NCBI GenBank assembly: GCA_036785375.1 | Contig: JAWMAR010000116.1 | Span: 1-64,000 of the forward strand | Source: Leucoraja ocellata | Taxonomy: Eukaryota | Direction of reading: 5' to 3' | Length of the DNA stretch: 64,000 bases | Notes under the pieces: model-generated | What the model saw: the letters and a program-made list of their open reading frames with translations, nothing else | Told to the model about the DNA's origin: nothing | The model's database searches: none | Part shown: one piece after another, positions 301 to 62,502 of the stretch | Position numbering within the stretch: the first letter of the stretch is position 1 | Layout of the letters: each line of letters begins with the position of its first letter | Made by a program: the position numbers and the translations under genes

Positions 301-870
301 TGTTACGACTCCCGAATGCAGGTACTTCAGAGCCGCGTAACACAAGGCAAAAACCAGGTTCAAGTTCAAAAATAGTTTTAATTATTCAATGGAACACAAA
401 ACCCAAACCTGATTTAAACAACCCAGTCAGGGATATGGATGAACTGACAAACAATTTAACAATGCTCCAGCCAGCCATGTGATGGACCGTCGAACCGGAG
501 ACTCTAAAACCTGCCTAAAGAGATATAACCCTGAAACAAAATACACAAAAACACTAAGGTCAGCCCTTATCCGTCCCAATTCAATATTTGTTACCAAGGA
601 ATGGTAAAGTACACAAAGTTCTATGCCATGTGGCCAGGCCTCCCTCGGTTCACACCAGCCGTCTGCTCATCAGTCAGGGTTGACGAAGAAGAGAGAGAAT
701 CCTGAGAAGCTCTGGTATTTAAGCTTCAGATGAGTCACCCGTCTTGGCCAATCGGGTACAGGAGCCTTTAACCCCTTGATTCCAGACTCACAGCCACGAG
801 GCCTGTACTCGGGAGAGAAACAGAGAAAGGTAAGTACATAGCATTCACCAGAAGGGGGAAGCGCCTAACA
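301..870 (-). mobile_element. Solo LTR (570 bp) of an LTR retrotransposon or ERV
   Basis: Ends TGTTA...TAACA; flanked by GTACT (296-300) and GTACA (871-875), a 5-bp TSD with 1 mismatch; TATA-like (about 715-723) and polyA-like (about 376-386) signals read on the - strand; no coding content. Confidence 0.6.
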
Positions 871-1142
871 GTACAGATGAGGAAGCTAGGTGGAACTGGC
901 CAAACAAGAGGGTTCAGTTTGGCTCAACGCTGGAATTTAAATGACTGGTAGGATTGCATTTTTTTTTAATGATATCAGTGACTCATTGAATATTTATGCC
1001 ATAATGTCATATACAGCTGGGAAACAGGCCCTTTGGCCCACTTAGTCCATACCAGAGGTTAAGTACCAACCTGTAATATTCCTATTTGGTGCTCGTCTAA
1101 ATGCTTCTTAAAAGTTGTGAGAGGACTTCAGCTACTGTCCAC

Positions 1143-3165
1143 TAAGGGCAGTTGATGGCAGCCTCTGCCTACAGTCTTTCTATCTTTTTAAAAAAATTAA
1201 AAAATTGTTTTAAAAGTGTGTTTTGGAGGTTTCTTTAGTTTTTCTATGTGGGGGAGGGAGGTAGGGTAAGGGGGAAACCGTTTCCCAGTCACTTGATATG
1301 CGATATGCCATTTATTGTCACTATACATGTACAGTGAAACTGAAAGCTGCTCGTACTCAGTGCATACATACAATTTAGCACAAAAAACAAGAAACAGAAA
1401 AAACAAAAAACAGAAGGGAGATGGGGGGGGGGGGGGGGAAATAGGTGCACAAATTCTGCGGCGCTACATACATATATACATATATACAGATGGAAGTCCG
1501 TGTTGGGCGGTGTAGTCAGTGCATGTGTGAATTTGAATTTATAGTAGATATAATTCTCGGAAAGCAACTATTCCTGAGTCTGTTTGTCCTGGATTTGATG
1601 CACCTATAGCGCCTTCCAGAGGGCAGCAGGTCGAACAGTCCAAACGCAGGATGGGAGCTGTTTCTGATGATCTTCTTTGCCCTGCTAAGGCAGCGGGAGG
1701 TGTAGATGTCCATCAGGGAGGGGAGAGGGCAGCCAATGATCCTCTGCGCTGTCCTGGTTACCCTCTGAAGCCTCTCCCTGTCTGCCATGGTGCAGCTGCC
1801 ATACCATGCTGTAATGCAGTATGTCAGCAGGCTCTCGATGGACGAGCGGTAGAAGGTCAGCAGCAGGTTAGAGTCCAGGTTGTGCTTCCTGAGGACCCTC
1901 AGGAAGTGCAGCCGCTGCTGAGCCTTCTTGATGACCGCTGTCGTGTTGTCCGTCCAGGAGATGTCAGCAGCGATATGGACGCCGAGAAACCGGAAGGTGT
2001 TGACCCTCTCCACACATTCGCCGTTGATGTGTAGGGGGGCTAAGTCGGTGCTGTGCCTCATGAAGTCGACAATGAGCTCTTTTGTTTTCCTGGTGTTCAG
2101 AGCCAGATTGTTTTCTGAGCACCAGGTTGTCAACTTCAGGACTTCCTCTCTGTAGGCTGCCTCGTCTCCCTTCGAAATAAGTCCGACCACAGTAGTGTCG
2201 TCAGCAAATTTGACGATGCGGTTGTTGTTGTGGGCCGGGCTACAGTCGTAGGTGTAGAGACAGTATAAGAGGGGGCTTAGCACACAGCCCTGTGGGGAAC
2301 CGGTACTCAACCTGCGAGTGGAGGAGAGGTGGGGGCCGAGTCTCACAGTCTGGGGCCGGTTGGTGAGGAAATCCTTTATCCAGGCACATGTGACAGTGGG
2401 GAGCCCGAGAGTGACCAGTTTACCAATGAGAATGTCCGGAATGATTGTATTAAAGGCTGAACATCGACTTCCTGGTGAGGATGCGACTATTCTCCGAGTC
2501 GTATCCTCGCCCCCCCCCCCCCCCCCCCCCCCCCCTCGTGGCCTACCAACTGGATTGGTGTGGCCTTTCCTGCCGGGGACCAGCCAAAGCTTCAGCTGTG
2601 GCGGCGCAGGCGATGCCTACCTGGATCACCGTTTGAAGCTCCGGAGTGCTGGGCCTGCTGTTTCAACATCGCAGAGCTGGGGTTTGTAGAGCTCACAGCG
2701 CGGGCGGTGCTGACCTCAACATCACGGAGTCCTGGGACCTTTTGCCGAGGGCTGCCAACGTGAATCTCTGCCCAGCGCAGCCGGTGGATTTCGGGAGCTG
2801 CTGTCTCCGATAGGAAGTGGCCGATTCGGATGTCCAAGCCGTTGAGGTGGTTCTCCCGTTCCGACGTCGGAGTTCCATCATTCCAGCGAGAGGGCCTGAA
2901 CATCGGGCCGCCTGTAGCGGCGACTGCGAGGGATTCGTGAGTCCCCTAACCACGGGTGAACAACAGAGGACAGAGGATGATGACTGAATTTTGGAGCCTT
3001 CCCTCACAGTGGGAAACTTTGATTCCGCTGTGTGGGGATGTCTGTGTTAAAGACTATCGTGTTCTGTGTTCTTGATTATTTGTATGGCTGTATGGTGACC
3101 ACGCATTTCACTGTACCAATTGGTACATGTGACAAATAAATGTATCTTGTATCTTTTATCTTGTA
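1143..3165 (+). mobile_element. GC-rich non-autonomous non-LTR element with Rex1-like 3' tail, split by a Rex1 insertion (1143-1294 and 2467-3165)
   Basis: Sequence reads through ...cccagtcACTT / ACTTcctggtg...; 3' end catttcactgtacc-aatt-ggtacatgtgacaaataaa followed by (tatcttg)-type repeats; same layout as 32429-33313. Confidence 0.55.
1295..2466 (-). mobile_element. Rex1/Babar LINE, 5'-truncated; reverse transcriptase C-terminal half plus 3' UTR
   Basis: ORF 1516-2346 (frame open upstream to about 2460) with [44 protein letters not shown] and [10 protein letters not shown]; 3' tail tgacaataaa-(gcatatc)n; ACTT repeated at both junctions. Confidence 0.9.
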
Positions 3166-3535
3166 TCCCTGAGAAGTTCATTCCACATTTCAAACATTCT
3201 ATGGATGAAGAACTCCTTCCTCAAATCCCCTCTAATCTTTTACTCCTTAATGTAAATCTGTGCCCTCTGGTTCTAACCACCTCTGTCAAGAAGTTTTTTT
3301 CAGTCTCTATCCTATTTATGCCCCTCATAATGTCGTAAACCTCAGTCAGGTCCCCCATCAGCTCCATGGAAAACAAACCTTGCCGATCAAGTCTGTCATT
3401 CGAAATGCTCCATCCCAGGCAGTCTTGATGAATTCCCTTGGCACCATCTCCATTGTAACCATGTCCCTCCTAGAGTGTCCCAGCCAGAACGGCATATATT
3501 ACTTCAGGTGTGGCCTAACTAATGTTTTATATACG

Positions 3536-3700
3536 TAGGAAAGAACTGCAATTGCTGGTTTAAATCAAATGAAGACATAAAATGCTGGAGTAACTCAGCG
3601 GGACTTCAGACTGAAAAAGGGTCTCCACCCGAAACGTCACCCATTCATTCATTCCAGAGATGCTGCCTGTCCCACTGAGTTACTCCAGCATTTTGTGTCT
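3536..3700. repeat. Penelope-derived fold-back repeat with degenerate hammerhead motif
   Basis: aaaatgctggagtaactcagcgggac is inverted later as gtcccactgagttactccagcatttt; centre ctgaaaaagggtctccacccgaaacgtc. Confidence 0.7.
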
Positions 3701-4355
3701 CCCTTTTCTATCCATTTATCCATCTACCCATCTCTAACAGTCTCATTTTGTATGTATGTATGTATGTTCCCAAAATATAGCCAAACGGTAAACGATAGCG
3801 CAACAATTTTAGGGGTGCCTTACTCACCATTCGCCTGCGGTGTGCAGTTTTGTTATATTTTAAAAGGTAATTCACTTAATAAACTTTAATGAACTTTATA
3901 TTGTGAATGGAACAAGTTTCAATGTGGCAGTCGAGCCTGCGCAGTGCGCTCCACTTGCCGGGCCCGTCAACCCCGCCTGCACAGTTCGGAGAGGGTTGCC
4001 AGGCCCGGTGTCCACGCGTGCGCGCAGAAGGAATGAAGAGACGGAACTCGAAATAACTGAACATCTCGAGGATCCAACACTAGAGGGCATAGCTATAAGG
4101 TGAGAGGGGGAAAGCTTAATTGAGATGTGTGGGGCAAGTTTTGTTATGCATAGTAGTGGGTGCCTGCTGTAGAGGTGGGGGCAGATGCCATAATGGCACT
4201 TACTGTAAGAGGTTTATAGATAGGCATGTGGGAGTGCCAGTAATAGAGGGTTATGGATCATGTACAGGCAGATGAGATTAGTTTAATTTGGCATCATGTT
4301 CAACACAGATATCATGGGCTGAGGTGCCTGTTCCAGTACTGTATTGATCTATGTT

Positions 4356-56756: not shown

Positions 56757-57044
56757 CACGGTATGGTGGTGCAGTGGTAGAGGTGTAGCCTTACAGCACC
56801 TGAGACTCGGGTTCGATCTTAACGGTGCTGTCTGTACGGAGTTTGTATGTACTGCCTGTGATCTACGTGGGTTTTCTCCGGGATCTCCGGTTTCTTCCCA
56901 CATTCCAAAGACAGACAGGCTTGGTATAATCGTAAATTGTCTCCAGTGTGTGAAGGATAGTGTAAGCATGCGGGGATCGCTGGTCGGCATGAAGTCGGTG
57001 GGCCGAAGGGCTTGTTTCCGCACTATATCTTTAAACTAAACTAA
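56757..57044 (+). mobile_element. HE1-type V-SINE
   Basis: Head, V-domain and tail. Confidence 0.85.
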
Positions 57045-57991
57045 GATACTAGTAATTGCTCCAATATAACTCTGATCAATATCAAAATCTATCAACATGT
57101 ATGATAGTAGAATACATTAATTGGTAATATATGACTTTTATAAAATATTTCTAATGTTATAGTTTACTTTAACAGCCAAATCTCCTTACATTATATGATC
57201 ATGTCAAACTACAGTTATTGCAGAATATTTTACTGAAGACATATCAAGCCTGCAATATTCAGGAAAAAAAAAGATTTATTATGTTATTATTACGATTGTT
57301 ATAAATGGACATAGAATGCCTTGATCTGAGAACATTTCAAGGCATATTGACATTACTATTATTTTTAAATTATTAGTCGGCACTAAACTGGATAATTTTT
57401 TAATAAATGCATAATATAAATTATTCCAGTAGCTCAGGGGATAGGTGCAGCCAGACCAAGATGATTTTGGATTCTGTTTGATAGTATGTCAGATGTGTGA
57501 TGGTGAAGCTACAAGAATTGATCTGAACCTCCTTAGAGGGAGCCTGACTATCGACCGATATCAAGGCTGTGCATGTAGACATTGGGCAACAACAGTTTGG
57601 AGCCTCTAATTGCAAACTCAATGCCAGTCAACCTCCTGAAAATCAGGTTTAGATAAAAATGCACAGAAAAGAAAACCCAGAGTCTGTGACTGAAATCCAA
57701 GTCCGAGGCAAAAGTTCGGGTGGGGAGAATTAAATCATGACTTGTATTTCATTCTCATAGTTTGCCTGTTGTACCCTTGTAGTTAGCTTATTATTAGTTT
57801 AGAGAAACAGGGCGAAAACAGGCCCTTCGGCACACCGAGTCCGTACCGACCAGCGATCCCCGCACACTAATGTCACATCTTCGCTTACGATGTGGAATAA
57901 TAATACTGACACAATATTTACAGGTTACATTCCTTTATCTCTATGTTTATTATCTCCCCCGGCCATGGCCTCCTGCCTTGGCTTACACAGC

Positions 57992-60078
57992 ACACCTGTG
58001 ACAGATCTTGACTAATCTTTTGGCATCTTTCTCACAACCTGGCCACCACACTTGTAAATGCTCTGTAAATTCTGTTTGGTACAGACGATGCCTAAATGTC
58101 TGTCATGAGCCAATGACACGATCCTTGGTCGTAGTGCCTGCGGGATCTTCAATCTGCTACCTCTCTGCACACACTGACCAATTAGACAAAATTCATCTTT
58201 TATGGGAACATATACTTTGTAAGGGCATTGATCCCATTGCCCACTGTGTATACGCTCTCTGATATCTTTGAGTTCAGGATCATGTTCCGATTCCCTTTCA
58301 ACTTCCTTCATTGTCACGGCTCTTGGCGTTGACTGAATTATAATGAAGTGCACAAAGTTCTCTGCTTCCATCTCTAGCGTGGATGTTGCTCCCAGCTGTT
58401 CATCCTTCAACAGTCTCGATGGCGGGTCTGCGATGTTTGCTTTCCCAGCTACTGTACTGTTGGAGTCTTAGCACCCATCGTTTTATTCTGGCACATGGCT
58501 TCGACCTTGTCAAATAGATCACTTCCAGCGGCTTGTGATTTGTAATGAGTTCGAATTCGATTTCACTTTAGCCCTTCACTTGTGAGTCCGTGGCCCATGA
58601 AATCGATCTCAGAGACGTCAAACTTGTACTTTTCTTCATTCACGGTGAGTCCTGCTTCTTGAAGTTTAGTCAACACTAGCTTCAACCTCCTGCCATGCTC
58701 TTCACGAATTAGTGCATGGACGATGATGTCATCTGATACGTTTGCTGCTCCTGGTACACCTTGAATCACTCTGTGGATTTCGTACTGATAGATCTCGGGG
58801 GCAGCATTGATTCCGAACATCAGTCTTTTGTACCGATACAATCCACAGTGAGTGACATATGTTGTCACCTCTCTTGACTCTGGATGTTATTCCAATTGAT
58901 GATATCCCCACTTGAGATCAATTTTGGAGACCACTTTACTGGTTGATAACTCTTGTAGCACCTCATCAACCTTAGGAATTGGGTGTCTTTCTCTGATTAT
59001 TACCTCATTGGCTCTCCTCATGTCAACACACAATCTGATGTCATCATTGGTTTTCGGCACAATCACCACTGGACCCATCCATGGTGTCGAACGTCCAACT
59101 GGCTCAATAATGACCTGATCAATCAACTCCCTGAGTTTAGCTTCTACTTTTCCCCAAAGTCCAAATGGCGTTTTCATCACCGGTTGAGCTATCGGCTTGA
59201 CATTTTCATCAATGGCAAACTTCACTTGCCGGCCTTTCAATTTTCCAACCCCTTAGAATACTGAGTGAAATTCCTGCCTCATGTCATCATATGACTGCAC
59301 TGAATTGACTTGCACTCCGATGTGAGGCAGTCCCAGCTCTCGAGCTGTATTGCTACTCAGCGAAGGTTCTCCCCTCTCCTCTATCAACATGAATTCTGCT
59401 TCAGTTTTTCTATCTCCAACTTCTACTTTAGCCGTGAAACATCCAATCGTCTGCAATGGTTCAGTTGCGCTATATGGATATAACTTCCTGCTACACCTCC
59501 TTGACGTGCACTTGATCTTCTGCTTTTTCAAGCATTCCCAAAGTAATCTGCCAATTATGTTACTGTCGCTACCAGAATTTACAATCACTGGCACTGTAAC
59601 ACTTCCGATGGTCACTGCAACTTTCACGTGATGGCTATCATTCAATGCAAACTGATAATTCATTTTAACAGCATGCTCACCAGCTTCATCACTGTCTTCA
59701 TCACGTCCAAAATCATCTTCCACGTGACGGACGTGACCCTTCTTTTTCTGCCAAGGTCTATCTTTCTTTTCACTGGACTTCCCTTGTTGTAATCACTTGT
59801 CTTGTCCCTGGCCTGACTTTTACATTTCTTTGCGAAATGATCTTTATCTCCACATTTCCTACATTTTCTACCTTTTGCTGTCAACATGCATCTTTCCCTA
59901 TGTGACCCTTGTTGTAACACCTGTAACACTCGATCTCTTGTTCAGGCTAATTTCTTGGACTACCGTAGGACAGCCAGTTAACTTGCCCAGTCTTTGAATC
60001 TTTCAATTTCATGCTGTGAAATTGTCCCTCAACAGATTCCAGTGCCGCTGCAATCGACAAAGCATCATTAAGGTTTAA
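57992..60078 (-). pseudogene. Gypsy gag C-terminus, protease, RT, RNase H remnant and integrase zinc finger (degenerate)
   Basis: CRKCGDKDHFAKKC knuckle; VIVNSGSDSNII (protease, D to N); PVVIVPK..DIRLCVDMR, KIDLKWGYHQ, YKRLMFGINAAPEIYQ, VSDDIIV; ITNHKPL..RIKRWVLRLQ; AHDRHLG...VWWPGCEKDAKRLVKICHRC. Confidence 0.9.
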
Positions 60079-61036
60079 CTAAGCAGGAGCAACCCACCAG
60101 AACCAATTAGAAGTACAAAGTTGACAACAGGACCAAGGGTTGACGTAGCTGTTGACTTTCTTGGACCACTTCCAACAGGTGAATCAATTATGGTTGTGGT
60201 AGACTACTATAGTAGGTTCTACGAGTATGCAGTGATGAAGTCAACTACAGCAGAAAAGACGGTACAGGCATTAGCAGAGATCTTCGCCAGACACGGGTTG
60301 CCAGTTACACTGTACTCCGACAATGAGCCACAGTTTGCTTCTGAGATGTTTGCTGAATACATAAGAATCACAGGCATCCATCATCACAAGGTGACTCCTA
60401 AATGGCCACAAGCTAACGGAGAAGTAGAGAGACAAAACCAGTCCATAGAGAAGAAGATACGAACCTCCCATGCTGAAGGGAAAAACTGGAAGGAGGCACT
60501 GGTAGCATACGTACCTGTATATCGGGCGATCACTCACTCAACGTCAGGGAAAGGCCCAGCAGATCCCTTGATTGGAAGGAAAATATGCACAAAAATACCA
60601 GAAGTGCAAGTGATCACGGAGGACCAGGAGCTGAGAGACTGTGATGCCGAAAAGAAAGGTGCAGCAAAATGTTATTCCGACTTGAAACAAGGAGCCAGGC
60701 ACTCTGAAATAATGACTGGTGATGACGTGCTTGTGAGGCGAGATGATGGCGGTAAGGTGGACACTCCTTACCATTACTGGATCGAGGACTGGCAGCGTGG
60801 TGGCAGTCAAGTCTCCAGAAGGTGTTACCTACAAAAATGTATCGAGTGGCAAAAAGTACATGTCCAGAGACACTCAAAGCGAGGTGGCCCAAAATCCACC
60901 GAGAGCCACTGATTCAGAGGGGCCAGACGACATCCCTGAGGCAGTGACCAGTGCTCCTGAGACAACCAGCATTTCCGAGGTGGTGACCATTCCAGAGGCT
61001 GCAGGCTGCAACTTGGAGGACAGGTCGTGTGTGCAT
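60079..61036 (+). pseudogene. Gypsy integrase catalytic core and C-terminus
   Basis: SRSNPPEPIRST, VAVDFLGPLP, VVVDYYSRF, LYSDNEPQF and PQANGEVERQN in or just before ORF 60121-60912; frameshifted tail in ORF 60743-61108. Confidence 0.92.
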
Positions 61037-61501
61037 TGTGTAAGCCAAGGCAGGAGGCCATGGCCGGGGGAGATAATAAACACAGAGACAAAGGAATGTA
61101 ACCTGTAGATATTGTGCCAGTATTATTATTCCACATCTTAGGCGAAGATGTGACAACTAACACTATACTACACACACTAGGGACAATTTTACACTGATAT
61201 CAAGCCACAAACGTACAAACCTGTACCTATTTGGAGTGTAGGAGGAAACCAAAGATTTCAGAAAGAACCCATGTGGTCATGGTGAGAACGTACAAAATGC
61301 GTACAGGTAGCACCCGTGGCCGGGATCGAACCTGGGTCTCTGGCGCTGCAAAGCAGCAACTCTACCGCTGTGTCACCATACTGCCCTACTTGGACTACGT
61401 GTACTATTTTGTCTATTAACCTCAAAAAGGTTCTATTGTCAGGAACGATGGTGCCACTGGTTATCGACTGTTCACTAATTCATTGAAATATTTGACTTCA
61501 G

Positions 61502-61621
61502 CTGCTGACGGGAATCAGTCTTGGCTAATTATTGCCATTGTGGTGCCCATTGCTGTGGCCATCCTGCTTATAATACTCATCATTGTGATTGTTATCTGCC
61601 TAAAACGAAGAAAACGCTATG
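61502..61621 (+). CDS. IGSF5: IGSF5-like exon, transmembrane helix plus basic stop-transfer segment
   Basis: gacttcag acceptor; A+CT gives T, then ADGNQSWLIIAIVVPIAVAILLIILIIVIVICLKRRKRY; donor G|GTCAGT, phase 1. Confidence 0.88.
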
Positions 61622-62123
61622 GTCAGTGCCAACATTCTCTTTATCCTTTATTTACATACAGCTTTAATTTAATTTTAAAGATGTACACAAAATGCTGGAT
61701 TAACACAACGGGTCAGGCAGCATCTCTGGAGAAAAGGAATAAGTGACGTCTCGAGTCGGGTCCCTACTTCCGACTGAAAGATACACATGGGGGATGGGGG
61801 GGGGGGGTGGGGGGGGGGGGGGGTGGAAGAAAAAACTGGTGGCGAGAAAAGGCCAGAACAAATCATGGGCCAGCAACAGATGACCTTGGGATGGGTGGGG
61901 TCCATAATGGCCCATTGTTGGCTGGGGAAGAGAGAGGGATATAAGGATGTGAACAATGGAACTCGTAGAACGACTAGGGGTGGAGGAGGTGGTGGAGGTA
62001 AGAGAGGGAGGGGGAGGGAATGTGTAGGAAGGAACTGCAGTTGCTGGTTTAAACTGAAGATGGACACAAAATGCTTGAGTAACACAGGGGGACGGGCAAC
62101 ATCCCTGGAGAGAAGGAATGGAT

Positions 62124-62151
62124 GACGTTTCGGGTCAAGACCCTTCTTCAG
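62124..62151 (-). ncRNA. Minimal hammerhead ribozyme core, intact motifs
   Basis: - strand CUGAAGA-A-GGGUC-UU-GACCC-GAAAC-GUC. Confidence 0.55.
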
Positions 62152-62502
62152 ACTAGTCAGGGGAAAAGGAAACGAAAGGGGGAGGAAATGCAGGAGTTAC
62201 TTGAAATGAGAGAAGTTCATACTGCTGGGTTGTAACCAGCCCAAGCGAAATATGAGGTGCTGTTCTTCCAATTTGCATGTGACCTCACACTGACAGCGGG
62301 GGAGGCCCAGGACAGAATGGGAAGGGCGAGTTAAAATGTTTAGCAACCAGGAGATCGCGTAGGCGAATGCGGTTGTTTTGTATAAGAAGGAACTGCAGAT
62401 GCTGGTTTAAACCAAAGATCGACCCAAAAAAGCTGGAGTAACTCAGCGGGACAGGCAGCATCTCTGGAGAGAAGGAATGGGTGAAGTTTCGGGTCGAGAA
62501 CT

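What the first reader, a model, noticed from the sequence alone, without database searches (positions are those of the whole stretch)
57866..61160. Gypsy retroelement with inverted termini and divergent gag-pol halves: a twin-priming-like product, or a TIR-bearing Gypsy derivative
Seen: the 3285-bp insert has a perfect 5-bp TSD (ACTAA) and TG...CA ends, and it splits a SINE cleanly, as expected of an integrase reaction. Its ends are not direct LTRs. They are 119-bp inverted copies (6 mismatches) of one LTR-end-like sequence containing AATAAA. Gag-PR-RT-RH-IN(zinc finger) runs leftward on - and stops at ...VKICHRC, directly against the left repeat. The residues expected next (SRSNPPEPIRST, then the DDE core) start at about 60080 on + and run into the right repeat with no visible polypurine tract or U3. 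The two halves are therefore contiguous in the ancestral pol frame, yet each ends in the same LTR end. Established: Gypsy elements have direct LTRs; DIRS have inverted repeats but use a tyrosine recombinase and make no such TSD; Ginger transposons have TIRs and a Gypsy-like integrase but no RT; L1 twin priming gives this contiguous-inversion geometry. Inference: two minus-strand strong-stop DNAs (R-U5, about 120 nt) jumped to internal sites on one RNA. The first cDNA stopped where the second was primed, their 3' ends joined, and a cDNA with two U5 ends was integrated. Alternatively this is one copy of a family that moves with TIRs, a possible Gypsy-to-Ginger-like intermediate.
Basis: partly seen in the sequence, partly recalled or inferred. 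Interest (0 to 1): 0.85.

Follow-up and report, generated by a model that had tools for sequence, protein, structure and literature searches.

The report
Gypsy copy with two U5 ends
A single dead copy of an ordinary Gypsy retrotransposon family has the same LTR end at both termini, an exact 5-base insertion footprint and a flipped front half; it is likely a reverse-transcription accident in which two primers copied one RNA, though scrambling after insertion is a close rival, and it is not a new mobile family.

Summary
Observation confirmed. The 3285-bp insert has an exact 5-bp TSD in a SINE (41 of 43 other SINE matches show the same 5-bp overlap) and 113/119 inverted arms. Its parents are ordinary Gypsy elements with direct ~205-bp LTRs; both ends here are the U5 end. 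The inverted and forward halves meet the parental integrase frame within 8-14 nt. The structure occurs at one locus only, assembled twice with shared flanks (likely two haplotypes), so it is neither a TIR family nor a likely assembly error. Of 22 family copies with interior and both ends resolved, only this one is U5/U5. Corrections: the LTR-derived parts are unequal (~125 and ~147 nt), R-U5 could not be mapped, and loss of PPT/U3 is common in this family. Best reading (0.45): two tRNA-primed minus strands on one RNA primed each other, and integrase inserted two U5 ends. Main rival (0.33): template switching after insertion; 6 of ~72 family loci carry inversion junctions and a seventh inversion demonstrably followed insertion. 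The scan's notes hold no U5/U5 case, only other scrambled fungal LTR copies.

The parts
57794..57865 (.). First piece of the SINE that was split by the insertion
   Evidence: 85% match to a second SINE copy at 56969-57039; continuity with the right flank in 41 of 43 paired matches
57866..57870 (.). Left target-site duplication ACTAA
   Evidence: 5-bp TSDs are the family norm
57871..57995 (-). Left arm: last ~125 nt of the family LTR (U5 end pointing outward); 57871-57989 is the gap-free inverted repeat
   Evidence: this LTR end is followed by the PBS in relatives
57996..58561 (-). End of RNase H and integrase zinc-finger region, broken by stops and frameshifts; joins the left arm over a 3-6 nt microhomology
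58562..58566 (-). Joint of an internal 410-450-bp deletion (RT end to RNase H) at a short direct microhomology
58567..60080 (-). 5'-truncated gag (zinc knuckle), degraded protease region and RT, with in-frame stops; PBS, leader and gag start absent
60080..60081 (.). Central head-to-head joint of inverted gag to forward integrase core; no exact overlap at the joint, a 6-of-7 inverted match directly beside it
   Evidence: joint spanned only at C116 and C722 among 40 of 182 candidates scored
60081..61007 (+). Integrase catalytic core and truncated C-terminal part, without zinc finger or any upstream start; frameshifted downstream
   Evidence: rve E 3.8e-09
61008..61155 (+). Right arm: last 145-148 nt of the family LTR (U5 end); PPT and first ~58 nt of U3 absent; 61037-61155 is the inverted repeat
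61156..61160 (.). Right target-site duplication ACTAA
61161..61381 (.). Second piece of the split SINE
   Evidence: (I3)

Best explanation
This is one dead, single-locus copy of an ordinary direct-LTR Gypsy family whose two ends are both the U5 end, and it was likely made before integration by twin priming: two tRNA-primed minus strands likely copied adjacent parts of one RNA, likely annealed at their 3' ends and extended each other, so that integrase would have inserted a DNA with two U5 ends. Shown: both ends are U5; exact 5-bp TSD; one locus; halves abut within 8-14 nt in the parental frame; short homologies at the joints. Inferred: (1) one nascent minus strand carrying ~125 nt of LTR end switched by microhomology to the integrase zinc-finger region and copied back into gag; (2) a second minus strand came from the 3' side and stopped where the first had started; (3) the two 3' ends paired at a short inverted match and primed each other, which needs neither PPT nor plus-strand strong-stop DNA; (4) both ends, each made from a tRNA primer, were normal integrase substrates. 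The RT/RNase H deletion and the loss of PPT/U3 on the right may be later, unrelated deletions.
For: One event explains four things at once: U5 at both ends, the exact TSD, near-exact contiguity of the two halves, and independence from a PPT. In relatives a single base separates the stretch resembling the LTR switch point from the stretch resembling the inverted gag breakpoint. The arms differ at 5 positions in both assembled copies, four of them rare states in the family, and both arms are closest to the same subfamily, as expected if identical at insertion; their 95% identity lies inside the range of 16 family LTR pairs (85-96%, median 93%). None of the 6 other loci with tight inversion junctions shows this contiguity (at the four deletion-inversion types 150 bp is duplicated or about 300-1000 bp lost; two are templated insertions that return to their origin). 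A random switch would have to pick the LTR terminal repeat out of 733 inverted 7-mer pairs in a real copy, 87 within 250 bp. Twin priming with microhomology is described for L1 (PMC2912911, passages); misaligned minus-strand transfer giving asymmetric LTRs and inverted proviruses (2 of 78) is described for HIV-1 (PMC9278108, passages).
Against: n = 1: no second U5/U5 copy among 22 resolved copies or 15 further stretches, so there is no U5/U5 versus U3/U3 asymmetry to test. The arms are unequal and the transcription start is unknown, so neither can be shown to be strong-stop DNA. Interior-to-LTR joints (7 other loci, some at the LTR start) and LTR-to-interior joints (7) are about equally common, so missing PPT/U3 is uninformative. 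Inversions are common here (6 of ~72 loci with interior sequence) and one more, L138, provably followed insertion. The TSD ends in AA, which lengthens the 5-bp LTR terminal repeat to 7 bp against the PBS side; 0 of 24 other TSDs end in AA, which favours the post-insertion rival by a few-fold. The central joint lacks 3 nt of the adjacent match, so it is not a clean annealing joint.
Confidence: 0.45

Rival explanations
1. An ordinary provirus was rearranged after insertion by host repair or replication template switching: a switch at the LTR terminal inverted repeat replaced the U3 end by ~125 nt of inverted U5, and a break in integrase flipped the gag-pol piece, in one complex event or two.
For: Mixed orientation in 11 other of 157 stretches = 8 loci; tight inversion junctions at 6 loci; L138 carries its TSD and ~1.5 kb of neighbouring DNA inside the inverted block, so it flipped after insertion; L195 and L196, two copies of one locus, differ by extra inverted pieces. 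TSD-end AA gives a 7-bp inverted match at exactly the needed place; 0 of 24 other TSDs end in AA. One break in integrase repaired at microhomologies on both sides would also give contiguity.
Against: Needs the switch to land exactly on the LTR terminus (1 of 87-733 equally long inverted matches) and a near-lossless second breakpoint, which 0 of 6 other inverted loci show; the 3 of those 6 with both ends resolved keep U3+U5 ends.
Confidence: 0.33
2. Integrase inserted one U5 end from each of two separate cDNAs; the host joined their free ends head to head and later deletions trimmed the resulting palindrome until no long inverted repeat was left.
For: Explains U5/U5 and the exact TSD; large deletions are frequent in the family; the two halves share no interior sequence, as palindrome trimming would favour. 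Two-donor concerted integration in vitro is recalled, not from a call.
Against: Contiguity within 8-14 nt would be a coincidence of roughly 1 in 100 unless cutting at a stem-loop boundary is assumed; no sign of two different donors in the arms.
Confidence: 0.13
3. Integrase joined only one end and a host polymerase rebuilt the other by copying nearby element DNA.
For: Described for HIV-1 with one bad end: the free 3' end primes on nearby host or viral DNA (PMC5041404, passages).
Against: Such junctions are described as duplicated, deleted or inverted; here the duplication is exactly the family's 5 bp and both termini are complete.
Confidence: 0.04
4. It is a member of a mobile TIR-bearing Gypsy derivative (Gypsy-to-Ginger intermediate).
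For: TGT...ACA termini, 119-bp TIR and a DDE core fit the Ginger1 size range (PMC2836005, passages).
Against: All junctions occur only at this locus and its flank-sharing duplicate; the integrase is split over two strands and broken; TSD is 5 bp, not the 4-bp CCGG/CCGT of Ginger1; arms have drifted 5% like old LTR pairs.
Confidence: 0.02
5. Assembly artefact.
For: Raw reads were not examined.
Against: A second contig (C722) holds the same junctions at 97.8% identity with its own substitutions and matches the flanks at 98-99.6% over the ~22 kb fetched.
Confidence: 0.02

Closest known systems
Twin-primed (5'-inverted) L1 insertions (PMC2912911, passages read; original Ostertag and Kazazian 2001 recalled, not held)
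   Same: Front part inverted, the two parts abut in the template with a few bases lost, short homologies at the outer and inner joints, exact TSD.
   Different: L1 primers are the two cut host DNA ends; here each half ends in a U5 LTR end, so the primers would be tRNA-primed minus strands and insertion would be by a DDE integrase. About one in five L1 insertions (recalled) versus 1 of 22 resolved copies here.
Ordinary Ty3/Gypsy (Metaviridae) LTR retrotransposon family of this genome
   Same: All 3285 bp map to it at about 81-94%: gag knuckle, RT, RNase H, H2C2-DDE integrase order, TG...CA, 5-bp TSD.
   Different: No U3 end, PBS or PPT; U5 end at both termini in inverted orientation; gag-to-zinc-finger half flipped.
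Defective HIV-1 proviruses with asymmetric LTRs or inversions (PMC9278108) and one-end aberrant integrations (PMC5041404); passages read
   Same: Deletions running from the interior into the 3' LTR ascribed to minus-strand misalignment; rare inverted genomes.
   Different: The passages read describe no provirus with two U5 ends and an exact TSD; that assay starts from a normal 5' LTR junction.
Ginger1 DNA transposons (PMC2836005, passages and Discussion read)
   Same: TGT termini, TIR of 40-270 bp, Gypsy-type integrase core between them.
   Different: Ginger1 are multi-copy, lack RT, make 4-bp CCGG/CCGT TSDs and encode a whole transposase; this copy is single, RT-bearing, 5-bp TSD, split integrase.
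DIRS1-like retrotransposons (features recalled; search listing only)
   Same: RT-bearing element with inverted termini.
   Different: DDE integrase remnant and exact TSD; no room for a tyrosine recombinase or internal complementary region, since the whole insert maps to the Gypsy parent.

Membership tests
Ty3/Gypsy LTR retrotransposon | RT-RNase H-integrase order in pol | tested here: met
   RVT_1, RT_RNaseH, Integrase_H2C2 in order on minus, rve core next in the parental frame; relatives are collinear
Ty3/Gypsy LTR retrotransposon | TG...CA termini and 4-6 bp TSD | tested here: met
   15 of 21 other resolved copies have a 5-bp TSD matching at 4 or 5 positions
Ty3/Gypsy LTR retrotransposon | Direct LTRs with PBS and PPT | tested here: not met
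   Met by relatives, not by this copy: U5/U5, no PBS, no PPT. It is a derivative, not a canonical member
Twin-priming product | Inverted 5' part contiguous with the forward part in the template | tested here: met
   8-14 nt missing
Twin-priming product | Microhomology at the internal priming site | tested here: met
   3-6 nt shared by LTR and zinc-finger region at ~57995; this length is also common by chance
Twin-priming product | Microhomology at the joint of the two cDNAs | tested here: inconclusive
   6-of-7 inverted match beside the joint, 3 nt of it absent in both assembled copies
Twin-priming product | Arms equal to, or within, R-U5 strong-stop DNA | not testable with these tools
   Arms ~125 and ~147 nt of a ~205-nt LTR; no transcript ends available
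Twin-priming product | Structure present from the moment of insertion | not testable with these tools
   No related genomes held; both assembled copies share it; arm divergence matches family LTR pairs
Ginger1 | Several copies with the same TIR ends and different TSDs | tested here: not met
Ginger1 | 4-bp CCGG/CCGT TSD | tested here: not met
   ACTAA, 5 bp versus PMC2836005
Ginger1 | Whole H2C2-DDE-GPY/F transposase, no RT | tested here: not met
   Zinc finger and core on opposite strands, RT present
DIRS | Tyrosine recombinase, no integrase, no TSD (recalled) | tested here: not met
   rve core and exact TSD; insert fully accounted for by Gypsy segments
Autointegration inversion circle | Intact LTR termini at the internal joints with a 5-bp duplication (recalled) | tested here: not met
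   Internal joints fall inside the LTR or between coding parts, with loss rather than duplication

The most novel reading that the evidence does not exclude
LTR retrotransposons have their own twin-priming pathway: two tRNA-primed minus strands prime each other without a PPT and give integrase a DNA with two U5 ends, turning an LTR element into a TIR-bounded, TSD-flanked unit in one step. This is a fossil of that pathway and offers the missing route from Gypsy to Ginger-like DNA transposons.
Probability: 0.4. Interest if true: 0.75.

Novelty: new variant of a known kind. Interest (0 to 1): 0.47.

Why it matters
If made before integration, it shows that a Gypsy integrase accepts two U5 ends in vivo and that reverse transcription can finish without PPT priming or the second strand transfer. 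Bao et al. (PMC2836005, Discussion read) call the chain of events from an LTR retrotransposon to a TIR DNA transposon unclear and suggest two separately inserted LTRs in opposite orientation; a single-step route with a built-in TSD would be a simpler alternative, and it is testable by counting U5/U5 against U3/U3 copies, which LTR finders that demand direct repeats would miss (inference). If made after insertion, it is a well-mapped case of host repair mimicking a TIR transposon. Either way this copy is dead and single, which limits its weight.

Tried and rejected
Mobile TIR family: whole-element and junction searches gave only C116 and C722 (40 of 378, 182 and 188 candidates scored); exact mid-LTR pattern (all 47 matches listed) gave no other outward-facing inverted pair. 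Palindromic parental LTR making both ends normal: rejected, only 5 bp terminal repeat. Autointegration circle, DIRS, Ginger: see membership tests. Two donor subfamilies: not seen. Arms younger than the insertion (later copying from the 3' LTR): not seen. Using LTR breakpoints to locate the transcription start: breakpoints of both deletion types scatter over LTR positions 18-142, no usable cluster. A second U5/U5 or any U3/U3 copy: none in 172 stretches; 63 of 163 U5-end and 60 of 160 U3-start pattern matches were not listed, so the survey is incomplete. Raw reads and other individuals were not examined. Literature: searches (listings only, open-licence library) showed no paper on two-U5-ended insertions or twin priming by LTR elements; subscription papers and supplements were not seen and may hold precedents. 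Scan notes by sequence: nothing.
Full report
OBSERVATION. The insert runs from TG at 57871 to CA at 61155 between two copies of ACTAA. The arms 57871-57989 and 61037-61155 are inverted copies, 113 of 119 identical. The flanks are one SINE: searched separately against fetched loci, the end of the left flank and the start of the right flank overlap by exactly 5 bp in 41 of 43 paired matches, so the TSD duplicates a pre-existing pentamer. Pfam finds a zinc knuckle, RT, RNase H and the integrase zinc finger on the minus strand and the integrase core on the plus strand from 60079; only RT and the core pass the curated cut-offs, and the protease-region frame has no match. All frames are broken.

IS IT REAL, AND IS IT A FAMILY? 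A search of the genome with the whole insert gave two full-length matches among 40 of 378 candidates scored: the window and C722. C722 has the same TSD and SINE and matches the window's surroundings at 98-99.6% over the ~22 kb fetched, 97.8% across the element. Many other family loci also come in flank-sharing pairs, so this is most simply the second haplotype (inference). Probes across the central and left junctions are spanned only by these two places (40 of 182 and 40 of 188 scored). The structure is therefore one locus assembled twice with separate substitutions: not a TIR family, and unlikely to be an assembly error. Raw reads were not examined.

THE PARENT. Relatives are ordinary Gypsy elements of about 4.7-4.8 kb with direct LTRs of 197-206 bp, a PBS after the LTR end, a purine tract before the 3' LTR and 5-bp TSDs. 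About 160 matches were counted for each LTR terminus. The end found at both termini of the window's copy is the one followed by the PBS, i.e. U5. The LTR has only a 5-bp terminal inverted repeat, so both ends cannot be normal. Against one real copy as a ruler, the insert reads: LTR 79-206 inverted, interior 3129-2556 and 2104-594 inverted, interior 3143-4014 forward, LTR 62-206 forward. With the second assembled copy the LTR parts are about 125 nt left and 145-148 nt right, so the 119-bp repeat is only their overlap and the claim that both equal one R-U5 length is not met.

JUNCTIONS. Relatives have 14 nt between the last sure base of the left half and the first of the right half. The first six of these resemble the LTR sequence at the left joint (3-6 nt microhomology), leaving 8 nt unaccounted for. 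The last seven match, 6 of 7, the inverted gag sequence just beyond the central joint, but three of them are absent in both assembled copies, so the joint itself has no exact overlap. One base separates the two stretches. The RT/RNase H deletion has a short direct microhomology; the right interior-to-LTR joint has 2 nt exact.

FAMILY SURVEY AS A CONTROL. I mapped 157 stretches and 15 more. The 157 collapse to about 94 loci, about 72 with over 500 bp of interior; flank clustering over-merged some through shared repeats. Of 44 de-duplicated pairs of outer ends, 22 enclose interior sequence: 21 are U3+U5, one (this) is U5/U5, none U3/U3; the other 22 pairs are LTR-sized and were not used for this count. 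Mixed orientation appears in 11 other stretches, 8 loci, six with tight inversion junctions, none in the 15 later stretches. L138 has the same pentamer before its 5' LTR and beyond its flipped 3' LTR, with about 1.5 kb between, so it inverted after insertion. Interior-to-LTR joints (7 other loci) and LTR-to-interior joints (7) are about equally common. This cuts both ways: the missing PPT and U3 say nothing about mechanism and later inversion is a real process here; but none of the six other inverted loci shows a near-lossless breakpoint of this kind, and the three with resolved ends keep U3+U5.

AGE AND DONOR. The arms differ at five positions in both assembled copies; four are rare states among 181 family LTR matches, one is a variable site. 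Both arms are closest to the same few loci. Their 95% identity lies within 16 family LTR pairs (85-96%, median 93%). This fits arms that were identical at or near insertion; it does not separate the two leading models.

MECHANISM. Twin priming explains U5/U5, the exact TSD and the contiguity in one event: a nascent minus strand with ~125 nt of LTR end moves to the zinc-finger region and copies back into gag; a second minus strand coming from the 3' side stops where the first began; their 3' ends pair and extend each other; both DNA ends then come from tRNA priming and suit integrase, with no PPT needed. All of these steps are inferred. The arms need not be strong-stop DNA: a normal first jump followed by a copy-choice switch gives the same result. 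The post-insertion rival needs a switch exactly at the LTR terminal repeat plus a near-lossless break. A real copy holds 733 inverted 7-mer pairs, 87 within 250 bp, so hitting the terminus is roughly a 1-in-100 to 1-in-700 event on top of an inversion rate near 8% per locus. In its favour, the TSD ends in AA, lengthening the match to 7 bp against the PBS side, while 0 of 24 other TSDs do (rows with at least 4 of 5 matches). My rough product is 1e-5 to 1e-4 per copy, small but reachable in a genome-wide scan, and the rate of twin priming is unknown. I give twin priming 0.45, post-insertion switching 0.33, two-cDNA integration with later trimming 0.13, one-end integration with host repair 0.04, TIR family 0.02, artefact 0.02. 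Integrase insertion of two U5 ends by either route is thus about 0.58.

COMPARISON. It works like a twin-primed L1 in geometry (PMC2912911, passages) but with LTR-derived primers. HIV-1 proviruses show interior-to-3'-LTR deletions ascribed to minus-strand misalignment and rare inversions (PMC9278108, abstract and passages), and one-end integrations are completed by host polymerases (PMC5041404, passages). PMC6894440 (passages) gave only the standard strand-transfer scheme. It fails membership of Ginger1 (PMC2836005, passages and Discussion), of DIRS and of autointegration circles (features recalled). Searches (listings only) showed no report of a TSD-flanked LTR element with two U5 ends; the library omits most subscription papers, and no supplements were read. 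The scan's own notes held no such case; two fungal notes on scrambled LTR copies were leads only.

VERDICT. A real and unusual structure, a one-off dead derivative of an ordinary Gypsy family. New variant of a known kind. The twin-priming reading leads but is not established, and the test that would settle it, U5/U5 versus U3/U3 counts across families, is simple. Interest 0.47.

Noticed in passing
L079 1838-5718 (G000:C23:8532837-8536717; duplicate L152): Family copy with normal U3 and U5 ends and a 4-of-5 TSD whose whole interior (ruler 523-4198) is inverted between two part-LTRs.
   Followed up: partly
L138 2536-5524 (G000:C502:~643400-646400): Family copy whose 3' LTR, TSD and ~1.5 kb of adjoining DNA are inverted; same pentamer at both LTR ends shows inversion after insertion.
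   Followed up: yes
L195 5000-8538 and L196 1396-5024 (C968): Two copies of one locus share a 190-bp inverted templated insertion, and one has further inverted pieces; either haplotype-specific template switching or an assembly error.
   Followed up: partly
L075, L127, L128, L170/L181: Further small deletion-inversion or templated-inversion events; inversions affect roughly 8-10% of this family's loci, which seems high.
   Followed up: partly
L101 5935-6022: An 88-bp piece of LTR (positions 33-120) sits inside the interior in direct orientation, replacing about 190 bp.
   Followed up: no
L110-L113 (G000:C111:1.151-1.221 Mb): One fragmented family copy appears twice in mirror image over about 60 kb: a large inverted duplication or merged haplotypes.
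   Followed up: no
L067 1301-1350 (family LTR, first 50 nt): U3 holds motifs that look like an AP-1 site, an octamer (POU) site and a nuclear-receptor half-site (motifs recalled); all are lost from the window's copy.
   Followed up: no
window 61500-61620 (+): Probable host exon coding a single transmembrane helix followed by a basic stretch; only generic sub-threshold Pfam matches. The element would then lie in an intron.
   Followed up: partly
window 61678-62499: Three copies of a common short repeat at 360-380-bp spacing and G-rich runs; ordinary interspersed repeats.
   Followed up: no
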